Part shown: positions 7,632 to 61,131 of the stretch, one piece after another | How the letters are laid out: every line of letters starts with the position of its first letter | Numbering within the stretch: the first letter of the stretch is position 1 | From: Schmidtea nova | Taxonomy: Eukaryota | Direction of reading: 5' to 3' | DNA length: 63,571 nt | Assembly (NCBI GenBank): GCA_044892505.1 | Contig: CM097882.1 | Location: 13,516,430 to 13,580,000 of the forward strand | The notes under the pieces: generated by a model | What the model saw: the letters and a program-made list of their open reading frames with translations, nothing else | Told to the model about the DNA's origin: nothing | The model's database searches: none | Position numbers and translations under genes: made by a program

Positions 7632-8035
7632 TTTTCAAATATTGTTCCATATCCTTTCATTCTTTTGTTTATATGTTTCTTCATATTTCTTTTTCGTTTA
7701 AGAATTCCGCCATTTTGTTTATTTTCAGTTTTATTTTCGTTAAACACATCAGTCACTTTACTAATTACTTGTGGCAAATGATGAATCACATCGGGCAATG
7801 AATCTTTAATTTCAGAAATGGCATTGGATTTTAGTGCAGGTAAAATCTTTGAATTATTATTTAACACATCATTGGCAGTTTTCATACCAAAATTTCCAAT
7901 ACGTCTAAGAATTGGTAATGCAAATCTACCTATCGTTTTCAACCAACCAGTTCCATATTGTTTACCTACAAAATACGGTAATTCTCCACCTGATTGGCTG
8001 TTGCTATAGAAACTGATAATATCTGGATTATTCAT
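7628..8035 (-). CDS. Putative protease-processed virion/membrane-active protein
   Basis: 135 aa; QSGG, QYGTG, QNGG motifs, amphipathic WLKTIGRFALPILRRIG, basic C-terminus; directly upstream of MCP. Confidence 0.6.
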   Translation of the reverse strand: MNNPDIISFYSNSQSGGELPYFVGKQYGTGWLKTIGRFALPILRRIGNFGMKTANDVLNNNSKILPALKSNAISEIKDSLPDVIHHLPQVISKVTDVFNENKTENKQNGGILKRKRNMKKHINKRMKGYGTIFEK

Positions 8036-9050
8036 TTATTTTACGGAAATGTAATGTCAAGTAAGTTTTGTCTTCTTTTGCAAATTTAACTATTTTTCCA
8101 CTGTCATCACGAATATTGATTTCAATATTGTTTATATATGTGGAACTGACCGGTAAATACATTGGATTTTTCTCAACAATTTGAACCAAATCACCCTTTT
8201 CATGTTTTTCAACCCAAACACATTTCAATAGGGGAACTGACATGTCACCAACAAGAATTGGTTGAATAATATTCGTATAGATGAACATTTGTTGATGAAG
8301 TTTTAAAACTTGTGGATAATATACGCCATCAATAATTTTGTCAAAGAATTCTTGTTCAACTAATCCTAACGAATTTGCTAAATTCCTACTAAATTTTACA
8401 CTAGTTATATCATCTTCAAGAATTAATTTAATTAATTTTCCTTCTTTAATATCAATCACTTTAAATGGATGTGGATAAAAAGTTTCAATTTGATCAGATA
8501 ATTCAGCAAGATTATTTATTATTAAATCGTCTTTGAAATTATCTGTGTATTCAACAGGAAAAGTATAAGTTATAGTAAACCGTATAGTATCATCAAGTTT
8601 TTTATTTTTATTTGCTGGAATTTTAATTTTGTTTAATTCATCATTAAATGTCACAGCTTTTTCTTGAAACCCTAATTTTTTAGCTTCATCAACACTATCA
8701 AATATTATTTGAAATGGAAAATATTTACAATTTACATTTAAAATATTGCCATCAATATACATTAAATAATAATTAGAATCGTGACTTATATCATATTCTT
8801 TCTTTTGTTGGTTAAAATTGAAATATTCATAACTAGAATGTAATTCATTTCTAGTAAATTTTATACTTGAACTATTATAAAATGGAAATTCATTGTACAC
8901 AAAAGTAAAATCCATAAGAGCAACTTCCCAACTACCATCCAAATAAATTGGGTTCTGATATTCAACATTGAATTTTCCAGCTTTATTATTGGGATGTGTC
9001 AATGGGCAAGAATTGCTTGGTAAATTAACATAAAAATCTTTTTTAATCAT
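8028..9050 (-). CDS. Minor capsid (penton-like) protein, paralogue 1
   Basis: FYVNLPSNSCP...PIYLDGSWEVAL N-terminus; MFIYTNII...VPLLK...MYLPV...IEINIRDDSG...LTLHFRK C-terminus. Confidence 0.85.
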   Translation of the reverse strand: MIKKDFYVNLPSNSCPLTHPNNKAGKFNVEYQNPIYLDGSWEVALMDFTFVYNEFPFYNSSSIKFTRNELHSSYEYFNFNQQKKEYDISHDSNYYLMYIDGNILNVNCKYFPFQIIFDSVDEAKKLGFQEKAVTFNDELNKIKIPANKNKKLDDTIRFTITYTFPVEYTDNFKDDLIINNLAELSDQIETFYPHPFKVIDIKEGKLIKLILEDDITSVKFSRNLANSLGLVEQEFFDKIIDGVYYPQVLKLHQQMFIYTNIIQPILVGDMSVPLLKCVWVEKHEKGDLVQIVEKNPMYLPVSSTYINNIEINIRDDSGKIVKFAKEDKTYLTLHFRKINE

Positions 9051-10080
9051 TTATTTTACGAAAATGTAGAGTCAAATGAGTCTTTGTATCTTTTGAAAAT
9101 TTAATTAATTTTCCACTGTCATCACGAATATTGATTTCAATGTTGTTTATAGTTGATGTTGAAATCGGCAAATACATTGGATTCTTTATTTCAATTTGTA
9201 CAACTTCGCCTTGGTCATATTTCTTGATCCAAATTGATTTTAGGAGGGGAACTTGTACATCTCCAACAGTCACTGGTTCAATAATGTTGCTGTAAATGAA
9301 CATTTGCTGATGAAGTTGTAAAATTTTGGGGATTTTTACACCAATTATTTCGGTATCAGTATATGTTTGTTTCTGTAGACCCAGAGATTTGGTTAAATTT
9401 GAATCAAAAGTAATTTTTGAAATATTATCCTGAAGAATAATTTTAACCAATTCATTATTGACAAGTTTCAATTTTTTAAATGGAGATGGATTAATTTTCA
9501 TTAAATATCCTTGTAATTCCGGTAATGACGTTATGAATAATTCATCTTGAAAATAATAATCATTAACAGTTTTAATGTCATAATTTATAAAAATTCCAAA
9601 TTGTTCAAGACTATTATCATTCGTGAATTTTGGTAATTTTAAACGACAATGATCATTTTCACTTGTAATTGATATATTTTCCAATCCAAAACTTTTTGCA
9701 TGTTCAAGATCTGGAAATGTAATTTTAAATGGAACATGTGGGCAAACAATCACTAAATAATTATATTTTTCAATAAATACATCAGTGTCTGAACTAGGTT
9801 GAGAAACTATAACTTGAATTGTTTTATTTTGATTATTAATTCTCAAATAACTAATTTCTTGAATTTCTCTTTTAGTTTCAATTTGAATAAAAGAATTACT
9901 ATAATACGGAAACAAATTATACACAAAAGTAAAATCAATCAAAGCAACTTCCCAATCGTCATTACTATTTAAATAAATCGGATTTTGAAATTCTACAATA
10001 AAATTACTAGCTTCATTATTAGGATAAATAAGAGGACATGCATTGCTAGGCAAAATCATATAAAACTGGTTTTCTTTCAT
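9043..10080 (-). CDS. Minor capsid (penton-like) protein, paralogue 2
   Basis: Same N- and C-terminal motifs as 8028-9050, divergent middle. Confidence 0.85.
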   Translation of the reverse strand: MKENQFYMILPSNACPLIYPNNEASNFIVEFQNPIYLNSNDDWEVALIDFTFVYNLFPYYSNSFIQIETKREIQEISYLRINNQNKTIQVIVSQPSSDTDVFIEKYNYLVIVCPHVPFKITFPDLEHAKSFGLENISITSENDHCRLKLPKFTNDNSLEQFGIFINYDIKTVNDYYFQDELFITSLPELQGYLMKINPSPFKKLKLVNNELVKIILQDNISKITFDSNLTKSLGLQKQTYTDTEIIGVKIPKILQLHQQMFIYSNIIEPVTVGDVQVPLLKSIWIKKYDQGEVVQIEIKNPMYLPISTSTINNIEINIRDDSGKLIKFSKDTKTHLTLHFRKIND

Positions 10081-10085
10081 AATAT

Positions 10086-11171
10086 TTATTTAATCAATTG
10101 TTTTTCAGATATCCAACTTGGAGTTTCATAGCCATGCCATTTAACGTAATATTGTTTATATTTCCCATCAGTTTTGGTTTTTAAAATCTTTTGAATTCTA
10201 AAAACTGTGGGAGCTGGAATAACTTGAAGTTCTTGTTCGTAGAATTTACCCTCGATTACATTGTTTTCATGATCGGAAATAGTATACATGACAGGATTTT
10301 GATTAGTATCAACATTTGAGATTTGATATACTTCATCACTCCAATTACTATCAAAATTTTTGATGAAGGGAGAAGCACTGATTTTACTCATTCTCACATA
10401 ATCGCCTACTTTATATTTCGGTTTTTTATTAATTGATTTTAATCTATCTTTTATCCATCCATCAAAATTATTATTTGAATATACATCGATAGGTTTCATT
10501 TTATTTAATCCCGAATGCGGTGAACGATTGTAACTGGAAATAATTTTCGGTAAAACATTTATCCATGTTTTGTTACCTTGATACACAAAAAACTTTTTCA
10601 AACGATCTCTTAAAGTTCGATTAAATCTTTCAACATGAGCAGCTTTGAATTGAGAAAATACAGAATAATGATTGATTTCTTTGATCACTTCTTTTACTTT
10701 GCTGTTATAAAACTCTTTTCCTAAATTAAAATTAATTAATTTTTAAAAATTTAATTTCTTACCCAAATCAGTTTGTAAATTTCGTGGCTTCCCATCTTTA
10801 AATAAAGATTCAATAGCCTCAGCCATTTCATTAGCAGATTTAGTTTTTGTTGGAATAGCTCGTGCATAACGGCTAAAAACATCAATACAAGTCAAAATAT
10901 ATTTGTAACCCTTGTTAATTTTAGAATAAGGAATCATTTCCATTAAATCCATTTGCCATAAATCGTTACCCCCAAAAGTTTTATATTTCCGTGTAGGAAA
11001 TCTTTTCAACATTGGTTTATTTAAACTATATGCCAATTGATCAGATAGCCATTTCTGAGTTTCATTCTTTGAACTTTTTATTCTTTTTGCCAATTTTTTG
11101 ACTGAACCAAAACCATCGGGATCTTTTGGGTTTGTCCATATCGTTTTTATATTCTTCATGATTTTCTTCAT
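10086..11171 (-). CDS. Retroviral-type DDE integrase with C-terminal chromodomain, two exons (intron 10721-10762)
   Basis: WQMDLMEM (D1), QTDLG/KEFYNS after splicing (D2), HVERFNRTL (E), YYVKWHGY chromodomain. The 42-bp GTAAG...TTTAG intron contains a stop. Confidence 0.92.
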
Positions 11172-11233
11172 TAATACAACAATTTGTTAAAATATTTAAA
11201 TCTATATTATGTTTATTCGGTTCAGAAATTTTA

Positions 11234-11563
11234 TTACCCATTTCTTAAAGATGAGATTGCGCTTATTGCTGATAATACTATTGGAATTAATGTACCGAGA
11301 AACCCACCCTTTTGTTTATATATTATTTTTCGCATAAGATTTCTATTTTTGGTATTCACTAATGACAAAAGTGAATTTTTATGTTTTTGTAGTTCAATTT
11401 TCTTTGATCTACTAATATTTACATTACCATGAACAATAAATAAAACGACTTCAAGTAAATCATCAATAACAAAGGGTGGGAAAGCTTGTAAAATTATCAT
11501 TCGCTTATTTGTTGGAGCTTTAACCAAAGCATTAAAATACGGTAAACTACGTTCAAATTTCAT
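11234..11563 (-). CDS. pX (mu precursor)-like core protein
   Basis: C-terminal KQKGGFLGTLIPIVLSAI resembles the adenovirus pX xGGFLPALIPIIAAAI motif. Confidence 0.65.
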   Translation of the reverse strand: MKFERSLPYFNALVKAPTNKRMIILQAFPPFVIDDLLEVVLFIVHGNVNISRSKKIELQKHKNSLLSLVNTKNRNLMRKIIYKQKGGFLGTLIPIVLSAISAISSLRNG

Positions 11564-11593
11564 GATTAAGATTTTTGTGTATATTTATTTCGT

Positions 11594-11755
11594 TTATAAT
11601 TTTATCCACTTCTTTACTTGTTTCTTTCTTTTACCAATCTTTTTGACAACTTTTTTAACTAATTTAGATTTTTGATCAACTTTTTTAAGAAGTTTTTGAT
11701 CAGCTTTTTGAACAGCTTCTTTATTTAACTTGACAATTACTTTTTTAAATGACAT
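11594..11755 (-). CDS. Small Lys-rich basic protein (53 aa), putative DNA-condensing core protein
   Basis: Hand-translated: MSFKKVIVKLNKEAVQKADQKLLKKVDQKSKLVKKVVKKIGKRKKQVKKWIKL; fills the gap between ATPase and pX-like gene. Confidence 0.6.
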   Translation of the reverse strand: MSFKKVIVKLNKEAVQKADQKLLKKVDQKSKLVKKVVKKIGKRKKQVKKWIKL

Positions 11756-11776
11756 TATTATTTCATTTATTTGTTT

Positions 11777-12400
11777 TCAATTTTGTTTATAAACCGTGAC
11801 TCCTTTTTCGTTAAATATATCCGTTCGGATACGTAAATCATCAGGACATTGTTGAGTAAAATCAAAGAATAAATATCCATGAGGAACTTTAGTAGCATCT
11901 TGAAATGAATTAATTAAGAATTTCCTATCATTAAGGTAAGCTTGTCTTGCTAAAAAATCAATAATTGTAGCATCTCTTGGGTTTTTGAATATAACCAAGT
12001 ATTGAACATTTAAATTACGAGTTCTGTGACTACCACCTTGATGAAATAAATTTTGAGTAATGAAAATTACAGTAACTCCTAAATGTCTACTAATTTTTGT
12101 GAATAAATTATTAAAATCTTTTTCTTTATTTGCTTCTTGGTACAAATCATCGATAATTATAACATCGCCCTGACGTAATCTAGATGACCAGTTTTTATCA
12201 AACCCTTTTATAATTGTCATTTTTAATTTACAGAATTGATCTTGAGTCAGTCCATGTTCTTCATCAGCTCCTCTATGCCAGTAAATTTTATTGAATTTTG
12301 ATTTAAACATTTTTGATTGCAACAATTTACATACAAATAATGTTTTTCCACTACCACTTGGGCCCACTATTTGATAAACTGCATCATTTCTTAATTCCAT
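11777..12400 (-). CDS. A32/FtsK-like DNA packaging ATPase
   Basis: Walker A GPSGSGKT, Walker B IIIDD, RH...FITQNLF, YLVIFKNPRD. Confidence 0.92.
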   Translation of the reverse strand: MELRNDAVYQIVGPSGSGKTLFVCKLLQSKMFKSKFNKIYWHRGADEEHGLTQDQFCKLKMTIIKGFDKNWSSRLRQGDVIIIDDLYQEANKEKDFNNLFTKISRHLGVTVIFITQNLFHQGGSHRTRNLNVQYLVIFKNPRDATIIDFLARQAYLNDRKFLINSFQDATKVPHGYLFFDFTQQCPDDLRIRTDIFNEKGVTVYKQN

Positions 12401-12456
12401 TTTTATTTAATTAATTAATTAATTTAATATTGTTTATATTTATTCAATTTATAAAA

Positions 12457-12939
12457 ATGATAAGTAATATTAATTATAAGGGCAAGTGTTTAGTTCCAAA
12501 CATGATATTTCCTGTTGGAAAACCCCAGCAAGTTATAGATAGGAGCGGGAAGTACCCTATTTTATTTTTCAGATCGGGAAAATGCCGTGTAATGGGTTGT
12601 AAGCAACCGTTAAAACCAGATGATTTGAAATATAAAATTTCCGATTTAAAAATTCAATCGATCACTATAACATTGGATATGGGTAAATCCATAAATTTAT
12701 ACGAATTGCAAAATAAAACAGAGTGCTGGTACGAACCCGAAATATTTCCAGCTTTAAGATTAATAAATTATAACCCTATTTGTATTAATATTTTTTCAAG
12801 TGGAAAAGTTGTAATATTAGGAATTAAAACATTGGATTATTTTAATCAAGTAAATGAAATTAAAAATTATATTAATTCATTAATTAATAATGAATTAATT
12901 GATGAAAAATATCTCGATTTATTATTTAATTTTGTTTAA
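12457..12939 (+). CDS. TATA-binding protein (TBP)-like protein encoded by the element
   Basis: Two TBP half-repeats: LFFRSGKCRVMG and KIQSITITLD...YEPEIFPAL...IFSSGKVVILG. First ATG at 12457. Confidence 0.85.
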   Translation: MISNINYKGKCLVPNMIFPVGKPQQVIDRSGKYPILFFRSGKCRVMGCKQPLKPDDLKYKISDLKIQSITITLDMGKSINLYELQNKTECWYEPEIFPALRLINYNPICINIFSSGKVVILGIKTLDYFNQVNEIKNYINSLINNELIDEKYLDLLFNFV

Positions 12940-35060: not shown

Positions 35061-35215
35061 ATTTATTATTTATTTTATTTCATTATTTTGTAAGGAGTTT
35101 CAAAACGTTTTTTAATCTAAAAATAATTTTGAAAAAAAAACATTTGTCGGATGACTTATTTGTTTTAAACATAAAAAAGCTTGTGATTTTTTGTGATACC
35201 CAGTGCAAATCCCCA

Positions 35216-35257
35216 ATAGCAGACTAGTTTCGAGCTTTTGGCTCTCATCAGTGCTAT
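35216..35257 (-). ncRNA. Minimal type I hammerhead ribozyme (mirror copy)
   Basis: Exact reverse complement of 35343-35384. Confidence 0.92.
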
Positions 35258-35342
35258 GCAGGAGACGCGAAAATTTCTCTCCATGCCAGGTAAGTATAAA
35301 ACTTACTTACCTGGCGCTGAGAAAAATTTTCGCGTCTCCTGC

Positions 35343-35384
35343 ATAGCACTGATGAGAGCCAAAAGCTCGAAACTAGTCTGCTAT
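35343..35384 (+). ncRNA. Minimal type I hammerhead ribozyme
   Basis: Stem I ATAGCA/TGCTAT, CTGATGA, stem II GAGC-CAAAA-GCTC, GAAA, palindromic ACTAGT stem III, predicted cleavage GUC at 35378. Confidence 0.92.
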
Positions 35385-37399
35385 TGGGGATTTGCACTGG
35401 GTATCACAAAAAATCACAAGCTTTTTTTTGTTTAAAAATAATTTAATTAATTAATTTATAGATTTAAATTTTATATATTATATATTAATATAATTTTAAA
35501 AATATATGGCCAACATCCTCATTAATATTAGAAATACAAATGCCTCAGTGTTTATATATTCAGAGAAAAACTTGAGAAATTTGAAATTGTTGTATTAACG
35601 GGTCTCATTGGAAGATAATGTCAAATGAAAAATACAACTCTGTGCTTTGTATGCGGAGTAGAATGGCATGTACGTAGAGAATTTCTAACAATTTTATGTC
35701 AAAAAAGTCAATTGCGTGAACACAAAGAAAATAAATGCTACACCAACTTGGAAAGAAGAAGAGTTGGAACGAAAAAGAATGGGGGAAACCATAATCACTA
35801 TCCAAATTGATCAATAAGATATCAACAGAAAAATCAACACCAGCGACGAACAGTAGCAACTATTGAAATTAATGCCAATGGATTATTTGGATGATGCAGA
35901 GGACAAATACAATGATGCACAACACCCAAAAACGACGCTCTTCGCTACGGGAGGCAATGATCGGAACAATTTATTAGGTAATTTTGATATTAATGTAGAT
36001 ATTTGTCATAGTTTTACTTATGATGTAAATAATATATATGTGTGTGTTGAGGTTCCCAGAATATCAACTTGGTATCTTATATAAGTAAATAAGATAACAC
36101 TGGTTCATGCTAAATTTTTATTAAATAACAAAATGATAATTACCAAGATAAATTAAAATCAAACAACTTCTTTCAAATCAAAATTTGTTTGTGTGTAAAT
36201 GTGTTATGATTGTAATAGGTGATGCGTGAATGCTGCTCTGAGATCGATTTTTGTATGCTCTATTTTAATTATTAGTCGATAACGACTATAAGATTTTTAA
36301 TCGCAATAATTTTTGGGGTGATTTGACTGAAAAATTAGTCAGTTTATCTTAATCTGTGAATAATGATTGTTATTTGGCTTCTTGAGTTGATTGAAATTGT
36401 TTTCAAAATAGAGTTGTTTTAAAAACAGAATTGTTTTCAAAATTATTTTTTAACCTTGGAATATTAATTCATTTTGCTAACCTTTGTAGGTAATAAATAA
36501 AACTTTTTAAACAAACAGTAATTTATTTACTTTTAATTTATTTAAACAATCTGTATTATTTATTTTATTATTATTATTATTATAATTTATTGAATTAAAA
36601 TATTAAAATATAAATGAAAATATAATCCATTTTCCAAATAGTTTTTAAAATTAATTTACATAAAATATTCTTTCAAAATTATATAAAATTTTGTCCATCA
36701 CCATAAAAAATGTCAATATATGTTCGCAAGACCACAAATGATAAATTGTCAAATTATAAATTGTCATGATGATAGAATACAAAAATTAATTGTCAACAAT
36801 ATTTTAATAACAGTAATAAAATAAAATTATCCCATAAAGTAAAAATTGTCACATGGTCAGAGCTTAATCATATAATTGTTAAGAATATACAATAGATAAT
36901 TTCAACATCAAACAAAAGTCAAATAAGATCAATAGTAAAATATCATCATATAGAATCACTAAAATCATAATGTCATTGAAGTTGATATTTTCTATTGATA
37001 ATTGAATTGTCATTGCCATCCGATACACATGTATATTTAATCTGTACCTTCCATTACCCACTGTATAATATTTTTTTAGAACCCCTATTCTACGTCCATC
37101 TTCTAATATATAAAATAATATAAACCCTTATCTAATAAAATATGTAATTTAAAAAGTCGTAATGCGCATAGTTCTAATGTTAGTAATGTCTTTAATGCTG
37201 ACCACACTTTATTAAATAATATTAAAAATATTAAAAATAAAAAAGATAATAAAATAAAAGAAACAGAATATAATAATGAAATTTTTTTAAAAACAATAGA
37301 GAAAACAGAGAGAAATGATAAAATATGGATGAATGAAATATTAGTGAATTCAATTTTTTTAATTAGAAGCAAAATATATTCACTGACGAAGAATGGAAA

Positions 37400-48427: not shown

Positions 48428-49333
48428 TGTTCGTCTGTGTGTGCTTTTTGATTTTCTATTCGCATCTGTATGCGCTTAATTTCGAAATCTTATTTTGCTC
48501 GCGTCTGTGTGCGCGATTTTGTCTGGGTAATTTTTTAGATTGTTGTTGATTGAGTTATTTATTGATTTTTTGCTTTAGAGGAATTTATTGTTAGATTGGT
48601 TGTTTTATTATTGCAGTTTTTTGAGGGAATTTAGATTTTTTGATTCAAGAATTGAAATTAATTTAAATACAACTATGAATGAAAGCGAAAACGAAGTAGA
48701 AAACGATGAAGTTAATAATACTGATTTATCTGACGACGATTTAACAGAAAATGATGAAAAAGAAGATGATGATATGAATACAGATGATAATGAAAATAAT
48801 CCAGCAAAAGAAGACACAATGCTTTCTGAAAACAAAGATAACAATTCTATAGAAGCTGATGTGGAAATCTCAGAAATTAACTCCCATATCAGATGTCGCT
48901 TTCGCAATGATTCAAATGAACTCTTCAGATGTCGCTTTCGCAATGATTCAAATGAACTCTTCAGATGTCGCTTTCGCAATGATTCAAATGAACTCTTCAG
49001 ATGTCGCTTTCGCAATGATTCAAATGAACTCTTCAGATGTCGCTTTCGCAATGATTCAAATGAACTCTTCAGATGTCGCTTTCGCAATGATTCAAATGAA
49101 CTCTTCAGATGTCGCTTTCGCAATGATTCAAATGAACTCTTCAGACTGAACCTTCTTACACTGATTAATAATAAAATCCTTGGAATCGTGTTACTTTTTA
49201 TCAAAAACATTAATTTGATTATAGCTCGAACATTTGGGCCTTTTGGTCAAATTGTCTGTGATTTTGGATCAAATCATGTAGTTATGAAAACAAATAAAGA
49301 TTCTCACTCGGACGTTCAATCAATGATTTTTCA
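48428..49333 (+). repeat. 5' LTR (906 bp; seven 36-bp repeats at 48890-49141)
   Basis: Matches 53699-54568 except for one extra repeat unit. Confidence 0.95.
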
Positions 49334-52300
49334 TGGTAGCAGAGCGTGGTTCCCACCGGGGGGCCACGCACACTCTGGAAAGCCGTTAGTCGACCTTTTT
49401 ATTAAACATTCTTTTATGCCTTTTGTAAAAATATTAAAATGGGTTAAATTTGTAATTGGAGTATGGACCAACATTCCCTCCCAGGCGCGTTTTGAATGGA
49501 AAGTGAAAGTTGGAATGGCTTGGCCACCGGATATTGTGAAAGACGGCTGCTATGGGCCCCAGCATTCTTTTAAATTCCGGGAAATGTTGCAACAAGATAA
49601 AATTTTGAAAGGCTTAGAACCTTTTGTAGGAATAAGGGGAGATAAAAGTAATCATAAAAAGTTCTATAATCAAATTGTTAAAAATATTAAATTGGGTAAT
49701 CATGAAGACCGGGTAAATATGAATAGAATAGGGAAATTATTGAGTTTTTATTCAATAGCAAGTGGTGATGAAAGGACAAGTCTAAAGGATAATAGTTCGC
49801 GAGTGAAAGAAAAGGAAACGGAGTCCACTTTACATTTTGTTTTGCGATTGAGACGTAGAATACAGATTTTTGTTAAGACTCTAGCAGGTAAAACCATAAC
49901 ATTGGAAGTTGAACCGAGGGACTCTATTGAGAAAATAAAAGCCAGGATCCAAGAGAAAGAGGGAATCCCGCCTGATCAACAGAGATTGATATTTGCAGGT
50001 AAACAATTAGGAGGCGAAAGAATCCTGTCAGATTACCACATTCAAAAGGGGTCTACTATTCATCTGGCACTGAGATTGTGTGGAGGGAATGATGAAGAGG
50101 AGGAATTAGAGGAAGGATTGAGAAAGAAGAGGAGTGTCAAATATAGATTGACGAAATTAAGAAACAGGTGGATGAATGATATGTTGGCAGAAGATGCAAC
50201 ACATGTCCTTGATGAATATCAGGAAGCTATGGAAAGTGCCATAGAGAGTTTTGAAAGATTGGTGGATATTAGTAAAAGATTAGGAAGGTCAGATACAACA
50301 ACGGGGCTAGAATCGGACTTACAAGAGATAGAAAATAAGAACGAGAAGGTGGAAGAGTTAATTTCGTCAAAGGCCAATCAGTCAGTTAGGTCGGATGACA
50401 GCAATACAATTAAAGAGATCAATGGAAATGAAACGAAGAAAAGACTAGAAAAGATGCAGAAGATACGGATCCAGATATTTGATGGACACCAAAAAGAATA
50501 TGAAAGTTGGAAAGCCGCTTTCCATACGTGTGTTGATAGTGCCCATGGAGATGATGATGAAAAGATGTTACACCTTCGATCCTATCTGAAAGGTGAACCG
50601 CTAAGGCTGATCGAAAATTTAGGATTTTCTGCAACGGGTTATAAAATGGCAAAAGAAAAGCTTGATAAAAGATATGGCGGGGAAGAACGAAATTACTTAG
50701 CTGCTCTGGAAGATATCGACAGGTTCCGACCCGTGCGTGAAAATGAAATGCTGGAAATCGAGGCGTTTGTTGGGCTATTGGAAACGCTAGAAGTTAGAAT
50801 TATTAATAATAGACGAGAGGGCGAAATGAACAATAGTTACTTATTGAAGAGATGCCTGCAAAAGCTACCCTGCTCGCTGCTATACAAGTGGAAGAAAGAC
50901 TTTAAGGAGAGAAAGGTAACCGAATGTATCCAAGATTTGAGAAATTGGTTACAAGATGAAGTCGAGCTGTTAAGATCAACAAGAGAAACCCTTTATGGAG
51001 TCGGGGATGGCAATAGAAGAAACGATTGGAAGAGACAGGATGGACCGTCAAGAGAACTTGGGAATCCAAGGCAAGGGAACCGGACACTTGTTGGGCAAGT
51101 AGCAGATTGGAAGGAAGACAAGACAAACATACCAAGAGACGGATTGTTGAGTACAAAGTTGAAGTGTTGGAAATGCAAGGAAAATCATTACTTGGATCAA
51201 TGCAGAGAATTCAAAGAAATGAACCCCGCAATGCGACGTAAAGCAGTAGGAGACTGGAAGTTATGCTTTAATTGTTTAAAGTCTAATCATGTAGCGTCGG
51301 AATGTCGAAAGGCTTCATTCTGTACTAGAGAAGGGTGTAAGCTGAAACACAGTAACCTACTGCATGTGGATCAGTCAGAGTCCAAAAGGAAGGAAAACAC
51401 ATTGATGTCGGCTACTAAAGATGAATTATTAAAAAGGGAGCGAAAATACCTAAGCTTGAGGACGATACCGATCTACCTTGAGCATGGAGCGAAGAAAATT
51501 AAAGTAAATGCGCTGTTAGACGATGCAAGCTCCATTAGCTACATAAGTCAGAGCATTGCAGACGAGTTGGGTCTGAAGGGGAAAGAGGAAATAGTTCCTG
51601 TGAGCGTCATCGGAGGTCATATTCAAAATATGACAACAAGAATAGTCACGATGACGTTGATAAGTTATGATCAGAAGATGAGGAAAAAGTTTACAGCTGC
51701 AGCGGTGAAGAGTGTAACCGGGGAAATGCGAGTGATAAATTGGGCAAAGGAAAAATGGAAATGGGAACATCTAAAGGATATACGGTTTCCAATGCTTGAT
51801 GAACGGCAAGTGGTGCAAGTTCTTATCGGAGCCGATTATTTAGGGTTGCAAAGAGCGTTGAAGGAAGTGGATGGGAAGATGAATGAACCGATTGCGAGAT
51901 TAACGCCGTTAGGCTGGACCTGTGTTGGTAATACGTCGATAAGAAAGCTGGGGAGTCACCAGAGTAATTTTACGCGAACGTTTTTTGGCCAGAGAGACGG
52001 ATTGGAAGACCAAATGCAAAGGTTTTGGAAAATTGATGAAATCGGGCTAAAGGAATATATCGAGAGTTTTGCACTTAAAGCTCAGGAAGAAGTTTTTAGT
52101 GAAAATCAAACTGGTGATAGCGATTTTAATTCAAATCAAAATGAAGATAACACGAAAAAGTATAATATGGCTGGTGAAATGATTGACAACTCTGAGTCGG
52201 TTGATATTGCAAGCGAGGAAGGAATAAATACTTCGTCAAACGAATTAGTGCGAAATGTAATGACGGAAATTGAATCGACAATGGTAGTAAAAGATGAGCG

Positions 52301-53573
52301 GGCAGTAAATGAATATAATTTTGAAGAAAACTGCATTGTCGATGAGAAAATTGTGGAAAATATAAATGATATCGAAGAAACTTGTAAAATTGAGGAAATT
52401 ATTGGAGATAACTCTTTTAATGGGGAAAATATTGAGCATGGAACAGTTGAAAATTCCAAAGTTGATAAAAGTGACGATGAAAAGGTTAATGATATTGAAA
52501 CAAATCTAGAAGATGATGGCAAAATTACCAAATATGTCAGTAATAAAGGTGAAAAAGTAGAAACGATTGAACGAATAAATTGTCCGGTTATAATTGCAGA
52601 GAGAACAGGTAGTGAACAGTCAGCATTTCTTCTAATGAAAAGTAAAGATGCAATTAGTGGCAATAAAATGGGATCATTTGACATGGTTGTGAAAGGTTCA
52701 ACTGGTGATGATGAAGTTCTGGCTGATAAGTCGGATTTAGTAATACAACTTCATTCAAAGATAGAAGATCTTGAAAATAAAATAAAAACGGGCGAATTGG
52801 AATATAAAAGGGAAATTAATGAATCAAAAGTAAAATTTGCGAATTTAGCTAAAACTGTAGAAACGTTATCAGCTAAGATAGAAAAGGTAAATGATATTAA
52901 TGGAAAATTGGCAACTGTAAATCGGGAACTAAAAATAAAGATTAAACGAAATGAAATCGATTTAAATGAGCTATCTGCGAAAGGAAGGCATTTAAATGTG
53001 GAGATGAAAGAAAAGGAAAATGATTACCTAGAAAAACTTCGAGAGGCTAATGACGAAATCGCTTCTCAGCAAACCTTGGTGAAGGATTTGACGGAAGTAA
53101 ATGGTAATTTAATAATTAAACTAAATGGCAATCTGGGAATGATGGAAGATAATAAATTAAACTCGAAGTCTTTAAAGATAGAAGAAGATTTCTTGAAAAT
53201 GGGACTTAGTACTAAAAAGGAGTTGGTTAAAGAAGTCTCAAGGAAATTGGGAAAGAATTTTGAAGAAGAAATTTATATTTCGAACAATATAATGAATATT
53301 GATGAAAAATTAGTCGAACCCAAAAGAGATGGCGAATTAATTGAGAGTCAGTTGATTAAATTAGAAGTTAATGGAAAGGAAAATAGAACGAAATGGTGTC
53401 TGCTGCATGGTCCGGTTGTGGGGCGTGATGGGGAAATTACAAAGGTTCGGATATTGTGCTATACAGCTGCAAAATTCATAAATAAATGCATCATGCAAGA
53501 GGCATGGATGCAAAGAATTGATTGGAAGGAAATACTTCCTCAGGAGGTGATGAAAAAGGAAAACCAATGTTGA
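48675..53573 (+). CDS. 1632-aa fusion: acidic region, 12-aa repeats, UBA1-like fragment, linker, ubiquitin, Gag (DUF1759-like, CCHC), aspartic protease, acidic/coiled-coil, pol scraps
   Basis: First ATG at 48675 in ORF 48588-53573; [35 protein letters not shown]...[34 protein letters not shown]. Confidence 0.9.
49203..49329 (+). other. Ubiquitin-activating enzyme E1 (UBA1)-like fragment inside the LTR (second copy 54438-54564)
   Basis: [31 protein letters not shown] resembles UBA1 [20 protein letters not shown]. Confidence 0.7.
49334..49351 (+). promoter_or_regulatory. Primer binding site, tRNA-iMet type
   Basis: TGGTAGCAGAGCGTGGTT directly after the LTR-terminal CA. Confidence 0.9.
49860..50087 (+). 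other. Ubiquitin domain (76 aa, ends LRLCGG), preceded by a partial ubiquitin tail ending LRLRRR
   Basis: [19 protein letters not shown]...LALRLCGG; 59/76 identical to canonical ubiquitin by hand count. Confidence 0.97.
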
Positions 53574-53698: not shown

Positions 53699-54568
53699 TG
53701 TTCGTCTGTGTGTGCTTTTTGATTTTCTATTCGCATCTGTATGCGCTTAATTTCGAAATCTTATTTTGCTCGCGTCTGTGTGCGCGATTTTGTCTGGGTA
53801 ATTTTTTAGATTGTTGTTGATTGAGTTATTTATTGATTTTTTGCTTTAGAGGAATTTATTGTTAGATTGGTTGTTTTATTATTGCAGTTTTTTGAGGGAA
53901 TTTAGATTTTTTGATTCAAGAATTGAAATTAATTTAAATACAACTATGAATGAAAGCGAAAACGAAGTAGAAAACGATGAAGTTAATAATACTGATTTAT
54001 CTGACGACGATTTAACAGAAAATGATGAAAAAGAAGATGATGATATGAATACAGATGATAATGAAAATAATCCAGCAAAAGAAGACACAATGCTTTCTGA
54101 AAACAAAGATAACAATTCTATAGAAGCTGATGTGGAAATCTCAGAAATTAACTCCCATATCAGATGTCGCTTTCGCAATGATTCAAATGAACTCTTCAGA
54201 TGTCGCTTTCGCAATGATTCAAATGAACTCTTCAGATGTCGCTTTCGCAATGATTCAAATGAACTCTTCAGATGTCGCTTTCGCAATGATTCAAATGAAC
54301 TCTTCAGATGTCGCTTTCGCAATGATTCAAATGAACTCTTCAGATGTCGCTTTCGCAATGATTCAAATGAACTCTTCAGACTGAACCTTCTTACACTGAT
54401 TAATAATAAAATCCTTGGAATCGTGTTACTTTTTATCAAAAACATTAATTTGATTATAGCTCGAACATTTGGGCCTTTTGGTCAAATTGTCTGTGATTTT
54501 GGATCAAATCATGTAGTTATGAAAACAAATAAAGATTCTCACTCGGACGTTCAATCAATGATTTTTCA
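53699..54568 (+). repeat. 3' LTR (870 bp; six 36-bp repeats at 54161-54376)
   Basis: Direct repeat of the 5' LTR. Confidence 0.95.
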
Positions 54569-55308
54569 ACATGAATTAAATTCGATCATAGTGTTTTGAC
54601 GCGGTCTTGTCAGCTCATTCACGACGCATGAAAAACAACGCTGTGAGTGACGTATTGATGTCCAGATCCTGTTGAGCCAAATATTAGGGGTGGCAGAAAC
54701 AACTCTTGTGGATGCGATTACTTACCCATCTGGCTTTTAAGGAACAGGCAATACCGCTTTTTACGACTGGCAATATTAAAACATATTGTCTTCATCTTGT
54801 CTTCTCTTATATTTATACAAATTAATAATAAGTTATCATAATTAAAAAAAATTATATTAAAAATAACAATACTTAGAAAAATAGTAATTAACAAAAATAA
54901 TTATGATAAAAATAATTAATAAAAATAAGAAACGTGTGAAAATAAAATAATAATAAATAATAAAAATAAAAATTAGAAACGCTGTAACTTTTATTTAACC
55001 GAAGTTAAAATAAAATAATTTTTATTCACAATTGTTTTTATAAGTTGGCTTAATTTTCAGTCACTGTTTTCTATTTTCTTTTGTTTTGCCAATATTATCC
55101 GCGATATCTTTAGTTATTATTGTAGTGCCTCCGTCATATTCATAATATAAATATTTATATATAAATTAAATAAAATAAAATATTATAAGATTATATATAT
55201 ATATATATATTATCATAATTATCTTTTTTCACCTTTGATCTTTTTTTATTATTATTATCAATAATTCTCATAATGACTATAGATCAAAATTTTTTTTTAT
55301 AAACAATA

Positions 55309-55440: not shown

Positions 55441-58042
55441 TTAATTTTTTTGTGCGAATTGAATGTTGATGGACAGTTTGTATTTTTTTATGAAAAAAGT
55501 CTCGGAAGCTAATCTTTGTAATGAATTTTTGAATCCCTCTTGTAGGATCTGGCATTTTGTTTCTTCTATAGATGGAGTTGTTTTATGTACTTTTTCCCAG
55601 TGTTCGTAATAATTACTGGTTTTGATTTTAGTATGTTCATTAAGTCGGGTGCGAAAAGTTCTATGTGTTTCTCCTATGTAAGTAGCGTCACATTTTTGAC
55701 AAGAAAGTTTATATACTATATTTTTGGAAAAGCAAAAGCATCGGGTTGTGGAACGACAAAGACATTTATGTTTGGAGATGTTGGAAATTGGTGGCTTTCG
55801 GAGTTGTGATTTTAACGGTGCGGAGGTTATGAACGTTGGACGGATGTGGATAGGCAAATCTGTTTGATTAAAAATGTTGGTGATTTTGTTGGCTGTAGTG
55901 TCATTTAGGAAAGGTAATCTTAGATATGTTGTGTGTTTGTTATTGTTATTGTGTTTCTGGCGTTTTCTATTGTTGCGTTTATTGTGGTATGGTTCGTTAA
56001 GGAAGTGTTTCTTTACAAAGTCTTCAGGGTATCCATTTTGGAGGAATCGTATTTTGAAGTTTTCTAATGTTTCTTGTATTTTGTTTGCGTCTGAACAGTT
56101 TCTTATGGCTCTTTTTCTTTCTCCTATTAGTAATGCGATTTTGCGTTGAAGTGGAACGTGGCTTTTCCATGGGAGGATATGACCGCTATGTAAACCTTTA
56201 GAATATAGCTCGGTGTTTGCATTTAGTGTATCTTGGCCTTTTGTGAAACTTACCATGGTATCTAAAAACGGTATTTTACCTTCTGTGTTCGGTGTTTCAA
56301 AAGTAAATTGTATGTTGGTGTTAGTAGAATTTGCGTGTGATAGGATTTGATTGAGAGGGATTGTGGAGACTATGAAGATGTCGTCGATGTATCGTTTCCA
56401 GAAAAGTATTTTGTCCCCAAAAAAAGATATGATCTTAGATTCTATAAAGTTCATGTAGAAGATGGCTAAGATGGGAGAAAGGTTATTACCCATGGCTAAT
56501 CCATGAATTTGTTTGAATGGTTTTTCTTTAATTATGACAGTATCTGAATTTATTGCTAATTTTAGAAGTTCTATAAAGTCTTGTTTAGTTAAGTCTGCGA
56601 GGTCAGTATTGGCTTTATGAGTTTCAAAGAAAGAAGCTGCGATATCGAAAATGTTATTCTCTCCGTGAAGAGGAATAGATCCGTAAAGATTGGAAACGTC
56701 AAGAGATCCCCAGAAGTACTGTTGTCCTGAGTTTAACGGAAGAGACGTATTTGTAATTTCGGAGACGAATTCAGTTGTGTTTTTAAGATGAGAAGGAACC
56801 AAAGGCAAAAGTGTTTTTAGAATTTCTGAAAGAACTTTAGAAAGTGTTGTGGAAGGAGTGTCAACTGCAGATACAAGAGGTCTACCTTTTAAAGGACTTT
56901 TGTGATCTTTAGGTAACATAGTCATATTACTAGGTAAAGGCTCACTGCAGTTGCATTTTAAAAGTAAATCTTTGATTTGAAGGTTAATTTGTTTATTTGC
57001 AAGTGTTGAAAGTTTCTTATTGTATAAAATCTGAGTCGATGCAGGTAAGATTATTTTGTTTATCGGTTCATAGTTCGAGAGATGTTCTTCAAATAGAGTA
57101 TTGTATTGTTCTGTGTCAAGAGCAATTAGTCGATTTGTTTTATCTGATGGAAGAATTGTGAAGTCTTTGGAATTCTTAATTTTCTTTATGTTTGAAGTGA
57201 AAGAATTTTGTGTTGAGCAATGTTTTTCAAGAAAGATAATTTGTTCTCTGACTAAAGTTTTGACTTTAGTTTCTAAACAGCTGAGTTTTTCTTCAAGTTC
57301 AGTCGAAAAGACAGGCATATTTGGATATGTTCTACGATTTGGATCCAGAAGATGATTGTGCTTTTCAGCTAAACTTGAAGATTTGGTGGATGAAATTGGT
57401 TTTAGATGGTATCCTATTTGTCTTCTTAGGCTTATAAGAGAGGCGTTAGTGATGATTTCGGCTTTTTCTAAATCTTTCTGGTTAGGTGGAGGAACAAAAG
57501 ATGGTCCTAGAGCGAGGATGTTTTCTTGTGTTTTTGAAAAAATGTGATTAGATTTGTTTGTAAATGGAAGAATTGAATTTGAGTGTGAGTTAGTGTCTTT
57601 AGTGTTGTTTGAATTTGTTGAAAGTAGCTTTTCTAATTTTTTTTTTATGCTTGCGAATGTCAAGATTTTTGGAGAAATTCTGGCAACAAGTATTATCTTC
57701 ACAAGTAAGAGGAGCACAAGGAAAACTAGTAAATTCGTTTAGCTTTTTGTAACAAGCTGAAATGCTAAGCTTAAGCCATTCTTTTTCCTGTTTTTCTTTA
57801 AGCTTCAATGCTTGTAAAGATGGATAGGTTGATTCCAGTTTGTTGGTAACAGTCAGGCCCACGGGAATGATGTTTCTTCTTTTGCATTCTTTTAAAAAAT
57901 GTAAGTGTGATTTGATTTTGATGATTTTGAGACTATAAAATAACGATAGATCTACTCGGTGATGGGCGTCCGCCAATATACTATCATAATTATCTTTTTT
58001 CACCTTTGATCTTTTTTTATTATTATTATCAATAATTCTCAT
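55441..58042 (-). pseudogene. Penelope RT/GIY-YIG ORF, frameshifted at the T10 run 57637-57646 (6 nt in copy C)
   Basis: SLDVSNLYGSIP, GLAMGNNLSP, RYIDDIF, IPFLD, VYKLSC...YIGET. Confidence 0.88.
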
Positions 58043-58079
58043 AATGACTATAGATCAAAATTTTTTTTTATAAACAATA

Positions 58080-58112
58080 ACACAATATTTCGGCACAGCC
58101 TTTATCAAGTGT
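58080..58112 (-). ncRNA. Variant minimal hammerhead motif in pLTR
   Basis: Reverse complement of 61231-61263. Confidence 0.65.
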
Positions 58113-58548
58113 GTATTTCTATCGTTATATTTACTTAATCCTAAATAGTAGCCTTAATTATTTTTTTAATATTTTATAATGATTTTATTGGATGAAAAAA
58201 TTTATTTTATTTTAATTTTTTTGTGCGAATTGAATGTTGATGGACGGTTTGTATTTTTTTATGAAAAAAGTCTCGGAAGCTAATCTTTGTAATGAATTTT
58301 TGAATCCCTCTTGTAGGATCTGGCATTTTGTTTCTTCTATAGATGGAGTTGTTTTATGTACTTTTTCCCAGTGTTCGTAATAATTACTGGTTTTGATTTT
58401 AGTATGTTCATTAAGTCGGGTGCGAAAAGTTCTATGTGTTTCTCCTATGTAAGTAGCGTCACATTTTTGACAAGAAAGTTTATATACTATATTTTTGGAA
58501 AAGCAAAAGCATCGGGTTGTGGAACGACAAAGACATTTATGTTTGGAG

Positions 58549-61131
58549 ATGTTGGAAATTGGTGGCTTTCGGAGTAATAATAATAATTATGATAGTATAT
58601 TGGCGGACGCCCATCACCGAGTAGATCTATCGTTATTTTATAGTCTCAAAATCATCAAAATCAAATCACACTTACATTTTTTAAAAGAATGCAAAAGAAG
58701 AAACATCATTCCCGTGGGCCTGACTGTTACCAACAAACTGGAATCAACCTATCCATCTTTACAAGCATTGAAGCTTAAAGAAAAACAGGAAAAAGAATGG
58801 CTTAAGCTTAGCATTTCAGCTTGTTACAAAAAGCTAAACGAATTTACTAGTTTTCCTTGTGCTCCTCTTACTTGTGAAGATAATACTTGTTGCCAGAATT
58901 TCTCCAAAAATCTTGACATTCGCAAGCATAAAAAATTAGAAAAGCTACTTTCAACAAATTCAAACAACACTAAAGACACTAACTCACACTCAAATTCAAT
59001 TCTTCCATTTACAAACAAATCTAATCACATTTTTTCAAAAACACAAGAAAACATCCTCGCTCTAGGACCATCTTTTGTTCCTCCACCTAACCAGAAAGAT
59101 TTAGAAAAAGCCGAAATCATCACTAACGCCTCTCTTATAAGCCTAAGAAGACAAATAGGATACCATCTAAAACCAATTTCATCCACCAAATCTTCAAGTT
59201 TAGCTGAAAAGCACAATCATCTTCTGGATCCAAATCGTAGAACATATCCAAATATGCCTGTCTTTTCGACTGAACTTGAAGAAAAACTCAGCTGTTTAGA
59301 AACTAAAGTCAAAACTTTAGTCAGAGAACAAATTATCTTTCTTGAAAAACATTGCTCAACACAAAATTCTTTCACTTCAAACATAAAGAAAATTAAGAAT
59401 TCCAAAGACTTCACAATTCTTCCATCAGATAAAACAAATCGACTAATTGCTCTTGACACAGAACAATACAATACTCTATTTGAAGAACATCTCTCGAACT
59501 ATGAACCGATAAACAAAATAATCTTACCTGCATCGACTCAGATTTTATACAATAAGAAACTTTCAACACTTGCAAATAAACAAATTAACCTTCAAATCAA
59601 AGATTTACTTTTAAAATGCAACTGCAGTGAGCCTTTACCTAGTAATATGACTATGTTACCTAAAGATCACAAAAGTCCTTTAAAAGGTAGACCTCTTGTA
59701 TCTGCAGTTGACACTCCTTCCACAACACTTTCTAAAGTTCTTTCAGAAATTCTAAAAACACTTTTGCCTTTGGTTCCTTCTCATCTTAAAAACACAACTG
59801 AATTCGTCTCCGAAATTACAAATACGTCTCTTCCGTTAAACTCAGGACAACAGTACTTCTGGGGATCTCTTGACGTTTCCAATCTTTACGGATCTATTCC
59901 TCTTCACGGAGAGAATAACATTTTCGATATCGCAGCTTCTTTCTTTGAAACTCATAAAGCCAATACTGACCTCGCAGACTTAACTAAACAAGACTTTATA
60001 GAACTTCTAAAATTAGCAATAAATTCAGATACTGTCATAATTAAAGAAAAACCATTCAAACAAATTCATGGATTAGCCATGGGTAATAACCTTTCTCCCA
60101 TCTTAGCCATCTTCTACATGAACTTTATAGAATCTAAGATCATATCTTTTTTTGGGGACAAAATACTTTTCTGGAAACGATACATCGACGACATCTTCAT
60201 AGTCTCCACAATCCCTCTCAATCAAATCCTATCACACGCAAATTCTACTAACACCAACATACAATTTACTTTTGAAACACCGAACACAGAAGGTAAAATA
60301 CCGTTTTTAGATACCATGGTAAGTTTCACAAAAGGCCAAGATACACTAAATGCAAACACCGAGCTATATTCTAAAGGTTTACATAGCGGTCATATCCTCC
60401 CATGGAAAAGCCACGTTCCACTTCAACGCAAAATCGCATTACTAATAGGAGAAAGAAAAAGAGCCATAAGAAACTGTTCAGACGCAAACAAAATACAAGA
60501 AACATTAGAAAACTTCAAAATACGATTCCTCCAAAATGGATACCCTGAAGACTTTGTAAAGAAACACTTCCTTAACGAACCATACCACAATAAACGCAAC
60601 AATAGAAAACGCCAGAAACACAATAACAATAACAAACACACAACATATCTAAGATTACCTTTCCTAAATGACACTACAGCCAACAAAATCACCAACATTT
60701 TTAATCAAACAGATTTGCCTATCCACATCCGTCCAACGTTCATAACCTCCGCACCGTTAAAATCACAACTCCGAAAGCCACCAATTTCCAACATCTCCAA
60801 ACATAAATGTCTTTGTCGTTCCACAACCCGATGCTTTTGCTTTTCCAAAAATATAGTATATAAACTTTCTTGTCAAAAATGTGACGCTACTTACATAGGA
60901 GAAACACATAGAACTTTTCGCACCCGACTTAATGAACATACTAAAATCAAAACCAGTAATTATTACGAACACTGGGAAAAAGTACATAAAACAACTCCAT
61001 CTATAGAAGAAACAAAATGCCAGATCCTACAAGAGGGATTCAAAAATTCATTACAAAGATTAGCTTCCGAGACTTTTTTCATAAAAAAATACAAACCGTC
61101 CATCAACATTCAATTCGCACAAAAAAATTAA
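58549..61131 (+). CDS. Penelope RT/GIY-YIG endonuclease (860 aa from junction-derived ATG)
   Basis: Uninterrupted frame with all RT and GIY-YIG motifs. Confidence 0.88.
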   Translation: MLEIGGFRSNNNNYDSILADAHHRVDLSLFYSLKIIKIKSHLHFLKECKRRNIIPVGLTVTNKLESTYPSLQALKLKEKQEKEWLKLSISACYKKLNEFTSFPCAPLTCEDNTCCQNFSKNLDIRKHKKLEKLLSTNSNNTKDTNSHSNSILPFTNKSNHIFSKTQENILALGPSFVPPPNQKDLEKAEIITNASLISLRRQIGYHLKPISSTKSSSLAEKHNHLLDPNRRTYPNMPVFSTELEEKLSCLETKVKTLVREQIIFLEKHCSTQNSFTSNIKKIKNSKDFTILPSDKTNRLIALDTEQYNTLFEEHLSNYEPINKIILPASTQILYNKKLSTLANKQINLQIKDLLLKCNCSEPLPSNMTMLPKDHKSPLKGRPLVSAVDTPSTTLSKVLSEILKTLLPLVPSHLKNTTEFVSEITNTSLPLNSGQQYFWGSLDVSNLYGSIPLHGENNIFDIAASFFETHKANTDLADLTKQDFIELLKLAINSDTVIIKEKPFKQIHGLAMGNNLSPILAIFYMNFIESKIISFFGDKILFWKRYIDDIFIVSTIPLNQILSHANSTNTNIQFTFETPNTEGKIPFLDTMVSFTKGQDTLNANTELYSKGLHSGHILPWKSHVPLQRKIALLIGERKRAIRNCSDANKIQETLENFKIRFLQNGYPEDFVKKHFLNEPYHNKRNNRKRQKHNNNNKHTTYLRLPFLNDTTANKITNIFNQTDLPIHIRPTFITSAPLKSQLRKPPISNISKHKCLCRSTTRCFCFSKNIVYKLSCQKCDATYIGETHRTFRTRLNEHTKIKTSNYYEHWEKVHKTTPSIEETKCQILQEGFKNSLQRLASETFFIKKYKPSINIQFAQKN

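What the first reader, a model, noticed from the sequence alone, without database searches (positions are those of the whole stretch)
35163..35437. Back-to-back perfect hammerheads whose arms begin with U1 snRNA-like 5' ends
Seen: a ~275-bp palindrome with a canonical minimal type I hammerhead on each strand, both reading outward. At the centre each arm starts with a U1-like sequence: ATACTTACCTGGCATGGAGAG (minus, 35297-35277) and TACTTACCTGGCGC (plus, 35304-35317); TTTGCAC, close to the U1A loop AUUGCAC, follows each ribozyme. The arms differ only in this central part. Established: U1 begins AUACUUACCUGG and pairs with 5' splice sites; minimal hammerheads occur in Penelope pLTRs and retrozymes. 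Inference: a non-autonomous U1-headed ribozyme retroelement, or a ribozyme element that targets U1 genes. Cleavage would free a short RNA with a splice-site-binding 5' end. Alternative: the motif is simply an antisense consensus donor (CAG/GTAAGT).
Basis: partly seen in the sequence, partly recalled or inferred. Interest (0 to 1): 0.82.

Follow-up and report, generated by a model that had tools for sequence, protein, structure and literature searches.

The report
Retrozyme carrying host U1 tip
The palindrome is one head-to-head insertion of a very common 380-base ribozyme-bearing repeat of a known kind, but that repeat carries a 17-letter copy of the start of the host's own U1 splicing RNA, likely captured once and predicted to be folded away inside the repeat's RNA.

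Summary
35127-35437 is two 5'-truncated copies of a 380-382 bp hammerhead tandem repeat (non-LTR retrozyme; 3,899 exact core matches), joined head to head and flanked by a 12-bp direct repeat. 22 of 46 sampled loci have this Penelope-type layout.

The U1 likeness is real and exceeds the splice-donor complement. The family's majority sequence equals nt 1-17 of the host's U1 gene (longest match in 3,000 shuffles: 14), and 3,908 sites carry the head. Likeness stops at nt 17; the TTTGCAC is chance-level.

The element is not U1-headed. The tip is internal to the unit, copies' 5' ends do not cluster there (3 of 70, 2.8 expected), and it is predicted to be fully paired in the circular monomer. A captured snRNA promoter was tested and is inconclusive. 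This copy has no upstream promoter region and would fold as one long hairpin.

The scan noted U1 tips in retrozymes of other genomes before (e1-9164185, e1-9968643; not checked here). Verdict: new variant of a known kind; interest 0.45.

The parts
35118..35129 (+). Left copy of a 12-bp direct repeat (likely target-site duplication); overlaps the end of the minus arm by 3 nt
   Evidence: (family D4)
35127..35302 (-). Minus arm: 5'-truncated retrozyme copy, unit positions -5 to 169 (position 1 = the U1-like A), 97% identical to the family unit
   Evidence: (L001)
35281..35297 (-). U1 tip of the minus arm: nt 1-13 and 16-17 match host U1a; nt 14-15 differ from both U1a and the family majority
35200..35269 (-). 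Type I hammerhead with extended helix I (core 35251-35222; predicted cut after 35222)
35298..35303 (.). Junction where the two 5' ends meet (unit -5 on the minus arm, +2 on the plus arm, one base between)
35304..35437 (+). Plus arm: 5'-truncated retrozyme copy, unit positions 2 to 135, 97% identical to the family unit
   Evidence: (L001)
35304..35317 (+). U1 tip of the plus arm: identical to nt 2-15 of host U1a
35331..35400 (+). Type I hammerhead with extended helix I (core 35349-35378; palindromic helix III; predicted cut after 35378)
35391..35397 (+). TTTGCAC: not a U1A loop by any test here; lies in predicted stems of the element
35433..35444 (+). Right copy of the 12-bp direct repeat; overlaps the end of the plus arm by 5 nt

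Best explanation
The palindrome is a head-to-head pair of 5'-truncated copies of a 380-bp hammerhead tandem repeat (non-LTR retrozyme), likely laid down in one event by a Penelope-like element's enzymes, and the repeat carries an internal 17-nt copy of the host U1 5' end that was likely captured once and is predicted to be locked inside two hairpins. Inferred cycle: arrays are transcribed, the hammerheads cut the RNA into unit or multi-unit lengths (linear or circular), and a Penelope-type endonuclease nicks A+T-rich DNA on both strands about 12 bp apart. Each free DNA end anneals by 3-5 nt to a U-tract/A-tract 30-100 nt behind the ribozyme and primes a cDNA. The two cDNAs stop at variable points and are joined head to head; here both stopped at the hairpin next to the U1 tip. 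The tip most likely entered the master element from a U1a gene or transcript by a reverse-transcriptase jump or 5' capture, with up to about 10 nt of flank. It is now held by structure: nt 1-12 pair with an upstream arm, nt 13-20 form a GAAA hairpin. This copy lacks all upstream sequence and is likely inactive: a read-through RNA would form a ~135-bp duplex instead of hammerheads.
For: Shown. Unit of 380-382 bp in monomers and long arrays. 3,899 exact core matches, reversed-pattern control 0. Head-to-head layout in 22 of 46 loci of the mostly position-ordered sample and 25 of 55 of the similarity-picked one; 3' ends at unit 105-175 in 61 of 70 and 67 of 82, usually running into (TA)n/(TAA)n. 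12-bp direct repeat around this copy; non-simple repeats of 9 nt or more at 6 of 44 loci against 2.9% in mismatched pairs. 17-nt identity begins exactly at nt 1 of host U1a; null maximum 14 in 3,000 shuffles; best match to the host U2, U4, U5 genes 8-11 nt. No significant likeness beyond nt 17 (p 0.06-0.29 for 4 U1 variants). The 10 nt before the tip match the U1a flank at 8 of 10 (7 for its paralogue, 1-6 for 10 other snRNA flanks; no p-value). Predicted: circular monomer z -7.3 against 60 shuffles, tip nt 1-20 unpaired probability 0-0.14; whole palindrome folds as one hairpin, -235.7 kcal/mol. The upstream arm pairs better with the tip in 83 young copies than in 14 older ones (position -34). 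Literature: retrozyme definition (PMC7229834); PLE origin (10.64898/2026.07.22.740005); inverted 5'-truncated copies and microsatellite bias (PMC8557442); U1 5' additions by template switch (PMC4494074).
Against: No autonomous partner was identified; the unit has no match to the window's Penelope-like ORF region. Cleavage, transcription and circularisation are untested. The cluster of 5' ends just after the cut site in one sample (6 of 70 at 77-83, 1.3 expected) did not repeat in the other (1 of 86). A neutral relic does not easily explain why earlier notes report the same tip in a retrozyme with a 218-nt period in another genome (unchecked). Folds are minimum-energy predictions; no covariation test supports them.
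Confidence: 0.6

Rival explanations
1. The element captured a U1 gene's promoter with its first 17 nt. In an array each unit's 3' half would drive snRNA-type transcription from the U1-like A of the next unit; the first cut would release a capped 76-nt RNA with a free U1 tip, and later cuts would release monomers that contain the promoter.
For: Identity starts exactly at U1 nt 1. The flank matches U1a at 8 of 10. 9 of 11 host snRNA genes have an ATG-core motif at -67 to -76, and the element has TTGCATA at -71; the reverse strand there scores 7.5 bits, p 0.017. In the 76-nt fragment of the family unit the first 8 nt are predicted unpaired. Precedent: newt satellite 2 has an snRNA promoter (seen only as a citing passage in PMC2220036). 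Earlier notes e1-8662630, e1-8663845, e1-8667023 suggest snRNA-type starts in retrozymes of another genome (unchecked).
Against: In the forward orientation, which all 9 host sites use, the element scores 0.6 bits against 1.0-11.8 (8 of 9 at 5.7 or more), p 0.16 (p 0.18). No upstream homology to any U1 gene (p 0.2-0.98); the best hit, to a U4 flank, lies at unrelated positions. Positions -39 to -14 are a fold-back of -13 to +12, not native promoter DNA.
Confidence: 0.24
2. The tip is kept for a splicing-related job: it masks the element's own donor-like CCAG/GTATAGT in cis, or the antisense strand offers U1 a perfect 17-nt site.
For: The tip pairs with that donor-like arm in the register U1 would use. 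Penelope pLTRs hold an intron (PMC8557442).
Against: The GT is absent in 11 of 14 older copies. U1 nt 12-17 are normally paired within U1 (established knowledge), so they would not read an exon. I saw no canonical Sm site by eye (not scanned). The unrelated 964-bp retrozyme of this genome has no tip.
Confidence: 0.09
3. The element targets U1 genes and carries the tip as target-site homology.
For: Junction-like end of identity at nt 17; U2-specific Keno elements exist (PMC4494074).
Against: Sampled insertions lie in A+T-rich or microsatellite DNA. Of 16 and 6 pattern hits for the tip with another continuation, 4 are intact U1a genes and the rest family copies; none is a U1 gene broken at nt 17.
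Confidence: 0.04
4. The motif is only the antisense of a consensus splice donor, or chance.
For: Nt 1-11 are by nature the donor complement; nt 12 is also explained by the hairpin.
Against: The following GCGCGG matches the host's U1a (P 6e-5; 3.5e-4 for five nt). Allowing for nt 12 and for two or three U1 variants still leaves about 0.001-0.005 (my estimate). The tip, not the sense-strand donor-like arm, is the perfect sequence.
Confidence: 0.03

Closest known systems
Metazoan non-LTR retrozymes (Cervera and de la Pena 2020, PMC7229834; Li, Clavereau and Pollet 2026, 10.64898/2026.07.22.740005)
   Same: 150-450 bp tandem unit, one type I hammerhead per unit, GC under 50% (37%), no ORF sought or expected, long target duplications, strongly self-paired predicted circle, flatworms named among hosts.
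   Different: Carries 17 nt of host U1; no snRNA-derived part is mentioned in the parts read. RNA not shown here.
Penelope-like element insertions (Craig et al. 2021, PMC8557442, passages)
   Same: 5' truncation, partial tandems, adjacent inverted 5'-truncated copy, microsatellite bias, hammerhead in the repeat.
   Different: No RT or GIY-YIG gene; partner element not found.
SINEU of crocodilians (Kojima 2015, PMC4494074)
   Same: U1-derived sequence in a non-autonomous retroelement, attributed to template switching; promoter unresolved.
   Different: There the U1/U2 part is the 5' head, the mobiliser is Tx1-Mar, and no ribozyme is described. Here only 17 nt, internal to a circularly permuted tandem unit.
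Newt satellite 2 (Coats 1994; seen only as cited in PMC2220036; also PMC7229834, PMC6155905 passages)
   Same: Hammerhead tandem repeat with weak palindromic helix III and extended helix I.
   Different: Its snRNA-type promoter was shown by experiment; here the promoter test is inconclusive. Whether satellite 2 holds U1 transcribed sequence I could not check: the primary papers are not held.
Schistosome Sm-alpha (PMC2770079, passages)
   Same: Flatworm hammerhead repeat with a part taken from a small-RNA gene.
   Different: tRNA-Gln-derived, with an internal Pol III promoter; not U1.

Membership tests
non-LTR retrozyme | Tandem unit of 150-450 bp in dispersed monomers, dimers and multimers | tested here: met
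   380-382 bp period; arrays of more than 20 units
non-LTR retrozyme | Type I hammerhead in each unit | tested here: met
   Intact core; RF00163 27.6 bits, E 0.00019, below the gathering score of 34
non-LTR retrozyme | Highly self-paired circular monomer | tested here: met
   Predicted only: -116 kcal/mol, z -7.3 against 60 shuffles
non-LTR retrozyme | Target duplications longer than 4 bp when present | tested here: met
   12 bp here; 6 of 44 loci with non-simple repeats of 9 nt or more, control 2.9%
non-LTR retrozyme | Self-cleavage and circular RNA in vivo | not testable with these tools
   Needs RNA work; the 5'-end cluster at the cut site was not replicated
Penelope-mobilised element | Inverted 5'-truncated copy, microsatellite-biased insertion | tested here: met
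   22 of 46 and 25 of 55 loci head to head; flanks
Penelope-mobilised element | Homology to the pLTR of an autonomous partner | tested here: inconclusive
   No match to the window's Penelope-like region; no genome-wide partner search was run
SINEU (snRNA-headed SINE) | U1/U2-derived sequence forms the 5' end of the element | tested here: not met
   Tip is internal; 3 of 70 5' ends at -10 to +5, 2.8 expected, 2 of them this copy's
SINEU (snRNA-headed SINE) | Sequence derived from a host snRNA | tested here: met
   17 nt identical to host U1a nt 1-17
U1 snRNA gene or pseudogene | Full-length match to RF00003 | tested here: not met
   10.2 bits, E 4.9, gathering 69.5; no significant likeness beyond nt 17
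snRNA-promoter satellite (newt satellite 2 type) | Proximal sequence element at the host's distance from the start | tested here: inconclusive
   Forward 0.6 bits, p 0.16; reverse 7.5 bits, p 0.017; matrix from 9 host genes
U1-targeting retroelement (Keno-like) | Copies inserted in snRNA genes at a fixed site | tested here: not met

The most novel reading that the evidence does not exclude
A retrozyme lineage has taken a U1 gene's promoter and 5' tip. Thousands of array units would then be snRNA-type transcription units whose first hammerhead cut releases a capped 76-nt RNA with a free copy of U1's splice-site-reading end, while the circular monomer hides the same tip in a hairpin. It would give a promoter to elements whose transcription is unexplained, and a transposon-made competitor of U1 at 5' splice sites.
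Probability: 0.22. Interest if true: 0.78.

Novelty: new variant of a known kind. Interest (0 to 1): 0.45.

Why it matters
How non-LTR retrozymes are transcribed is open, and so is how snRNA-headed elements get a promoter (PMC4494074). A retrozyme with an exact U1 start gives one defined position to test: if capped RNAs begin at that A, the tandem-plus-ribozyme design explains how an external snRNA promoter survives retrotransposition. Apart from that, about 3,900 genomic sites carry a perfect 5' splice-site complement, so antisense insertions in introns are potential strong cryptic donors (inference). The palindrome itself is an ordinary, probably dead insertion.

Tried and rejected
Rfam at gathering score: nothing in the window; miRNA hits at lower scores reflect the palindrome only. 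Genome search with RF00163 rang nowhere, controls included, so it says nothing. An impression that 5' ends cluster at the U1 tip came from loci ranked by likeness to this window (8 of 86 in that biased sample) and vanished in the position-ordered sample (3 of 70). Lower divergence of nt 1-11 in older copies (5 of 154 sites) was set aside because many of those loci were picked by patterns that demand these letters. A 78-nt sense-strand intron from the donor-like arm was considered and dropped: the GT is missing in 11 of 14 older copies. De novo motif search on host snRNA flanks gave a noisy alignment. Three patterns for other U1-tipped families found only this family and U1a genes; they cover only tips with those continuations or within 20-50 nt of a core. 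Sequencing runs: no RNA holder listed; no reads or contigs were laid, so expression and an independent check of the junction are open. Coats 1994, Luzi 1997 and Cremisi 1992 are not held. Look-ups of earlier findings by sequence and relatives returned nothing, as did one by words.

Full report
Observation. The window holds an inverted repeat with 139-nt arms, 95% complementary, 7 nt apart (35158-35296 / 35304-35442). Each strand has an intact hammerhead core reading outward (+35349, -35251). Rfam scores stay below the curated thresholds: HH9 24.1 bits on both arms, Hammerhead_1 27.6 bits on a family copy. Helix III is two pairs with a palindromic sequence, and helix I is predicted to extend through an internal loop. 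That resembles the salamander ribozymes that cut better as dimers (PMC7229834; PMC6155905).

What it belongs to. The arms are pieces of a 380-382 bp tandem repeat. The exact 30-nt core occurs 3,899 times in the genome, the reversed control 0 times. I fetched the clusters among the first 100 listed places and mapped them on the unit. 22 of 46 are head to head, and 61 of 70 3' ends fall at unit positions 105-175, mostly running into (TA)n or (TAA)n. Sample B (55 loci picked by likeness or by tip patterns, so biased) gave 25 of 55 and 67 of 82. Some counted ends are internal breakpoints of the alignment. This layout matches Penelope-like insertions (PMC8557442, passages), and the unit fits the definition of non-LTR retrozymes (PMC7229834, parts 2-3 of 6 and passages; Li et al. 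2026, parts 1-3 of 5). Earlier notes call the host probably a planarian; I did not test that.

This copy. The minus arm covers unit -5 to 169 (35302-35127) and the plus arm 2 to 135 (35304-35437). A 12-bp direct repeat flanks the pair (35118-35129, 35433-35444) and overlaps the arm ends by 3 and 5 nt. Non-simple repeats of 9 nt or more flank 6 of 44 loci, against 2.9% of mismatched pairs. I infer staggered nicks, with each strand priming its own cDNA by microhomology. Both arms lack the upstream part of the unit, and a read-through RNA is predicted to fold as one hairpin of -235.7 kcal/mol with no hammerhead. The two ribozymes lie on opposite strands and cannot form the dimer in cis. This copy is likely inactive.

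The U1 tip. Host U1 genes were found with RF00003 (42 matches). The U1a type begins with the same 17 letters as the family majority; this window's arms carry 13 and 14 contiguous letters of it. The longest exact match between unit and U1a is 17 nt, starting at U1 nt 1; in 3,000 dinucleotide shuffles the maximum was 14 and the mode 8; U2, U4 and U5 give 8-11. Given the 11-nt donor complement, the next six letters match with P 6e-5. A slightly degenerate 21-nt head pattern occurs 3,908 times, about once per core. Among 95 loci, 41 have the commonest 19-letter head; the next commonest variants are CG-to-TG or CA changes (partly selected by pattern). Older and younger subfamilies share the tip. 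Beyond nt 17 no likeness is significant (p 0.06-0.29), the full U1 model scores 10.2 bits, and TTGCAC(T) appears in 5-16% of shuffles.

Is it a head? No. 3 of 70 5' ends lie at -10 to +5 (2.8 expected), and two are this copy's. In the circular monomer (z -7.3, 60 shuffles) nt 1-12 pair with an arm at -39 to -27 and nt 13-20 form a GAAA-capped hairpin. The arm pairs better in young copies than in old ones (position -34: T in 78 of 82, A in 11 of 14), which suggests the arm adapted to a fixed tip; the direction rests on the older set being more diverged. No U1 gene interrupted at nt 17 and no second U1-tipped family turned up in three pattern searches, and a 964-bp retrozyme of this genome has no tip.

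Promoter test. 9 of 11 host U1, U2, U4 and U5 flanks share an ATG-core motif at -67 to -76 (the pattern was chosen by eye from the host genes after I had seen the element). The element has TTGCATA at -71: 0.6 bits forward (p 0.16), 7.5 bits on the reverse strand (p 0.017), while all host sites are forward. Upstream regions do not align. The 10 nt before the tip match the U1a flank best, 8 of 10. The result is inconclusive. Newt satellite 2 is cited as having an snRNA promoter (PMC2220036, passage); the primary papers are not held, so whether it also carries U1 transcribed sequence is unchecked.

Mechanism. I commit, at 0.6, to a retrozyme mobilised by Penelope-type enzymes, with a U1 tip captured once and held by local structure. 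Shown: copy number, layout, ends, direct repeat, 17-nt identity. Predicted: folds and cut site. Inferred: priming, partner, route of capture (by analogy with U1 additions in SINEU; PMC4494074, parts 1, 3, 4 of 5). The main rival, at 0.24, is capture of the U1 promoter with transcription starting at the tip.

Novelty. Four searches bear on a U1 piece in a hammerhead repeat: hammerhead ribozyme + U1 snRNA + retrozyme gave 1 paper, a plant RNA review seen as a listing only; three other combinations gave 0. Hammerhead + Schmidtea + ribozyme listed 8 papers, of which I read passages of one. Supplements were not read, and repeat databases were not searched. Within this scan, earlier notes report U1 tips in retrozymes of other genomes, one with a 218-nt period, and a 382-bp retrozyme in this genome that I confirmed is this family (L089). 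I could not check the other genomes. If those notes hold, recurrence would argue for function and raise the promoter reading. Verdict: a new variant of a known kind, interest 0.45.

Noticed in passing
window 31036-31247, minus strand: An older, decayed copy of the same retrozyme family (73-85% identity) with an eroded U1 tip.
   Followed up: partly
L065:1501-1562: A family copy ends exactly at nt 17 of the U1 tip and is followed by three copies of a 14-nt unit; possibly another element inserted at that point. Seen once among 16 pattern hits.
   Followed up: partly
L031-L045: The host has several U1 variants: U1a; a variant about 420 bp upstream of it whose tip reads AAACTTACTTGG; a single gene with AAACTAACCTGG; and tandem arrays with a period of 2.5 kb or more.
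   Followed up: no
L046:1501-1690 (U2 array, 930-bp period): The arrayed U2 genes read GTGTAAGAAC in the branch-pairing region, which differs from the usual GTGTAGTATC (usual form recalled, not from a call).
   Followed up: no
upstream of host snRNA genes, L033-L080: A candidate proximal promoter motif, ATG-C/T-A/G-A-A, at -67 to -76 in 9 of 11 U1, U2, U4 and U5 flanks.
   Followed up: partly
window 93-12939: Cluster of ORFs that look, by eye, like Polinton/Maverick genes (DNA polymerase B, capsid-like, packaging ATPase, integrase); not scanned.
   Followed up: no
window 48579-53573: 1,664-aa ORF resembling a BEL/Pao gag-protease, with a ubiquitin-like stretch and a 12-aa repeat before it; the start is repeated at 53850-54599.
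   Followed up: no
window 55441-61131: Two nearly identical reverse-transcriptase ORFs head to head (RVT_1, E 1.4e-7), Penelope-like by eye; no match to the retrozyme unit.
   Followed up: partly
window 24803-26005, minus strand: One ORF joins a prenyltransferase domain (E 1.2e-70) to a ribonucleotide reductase all-alpha fragment (E 2.6e-19); likely a chimeric retrocopy.
   Followed up: no
window 33849-34580: Integrase core fragment (rve, E 1.4e-6) about 540 bp upstream of the insertion.
   Followed up: no
L088:1639-2603: A different, 964-bp hammerhead repeat without a U1 tip.
   Followed up: partly
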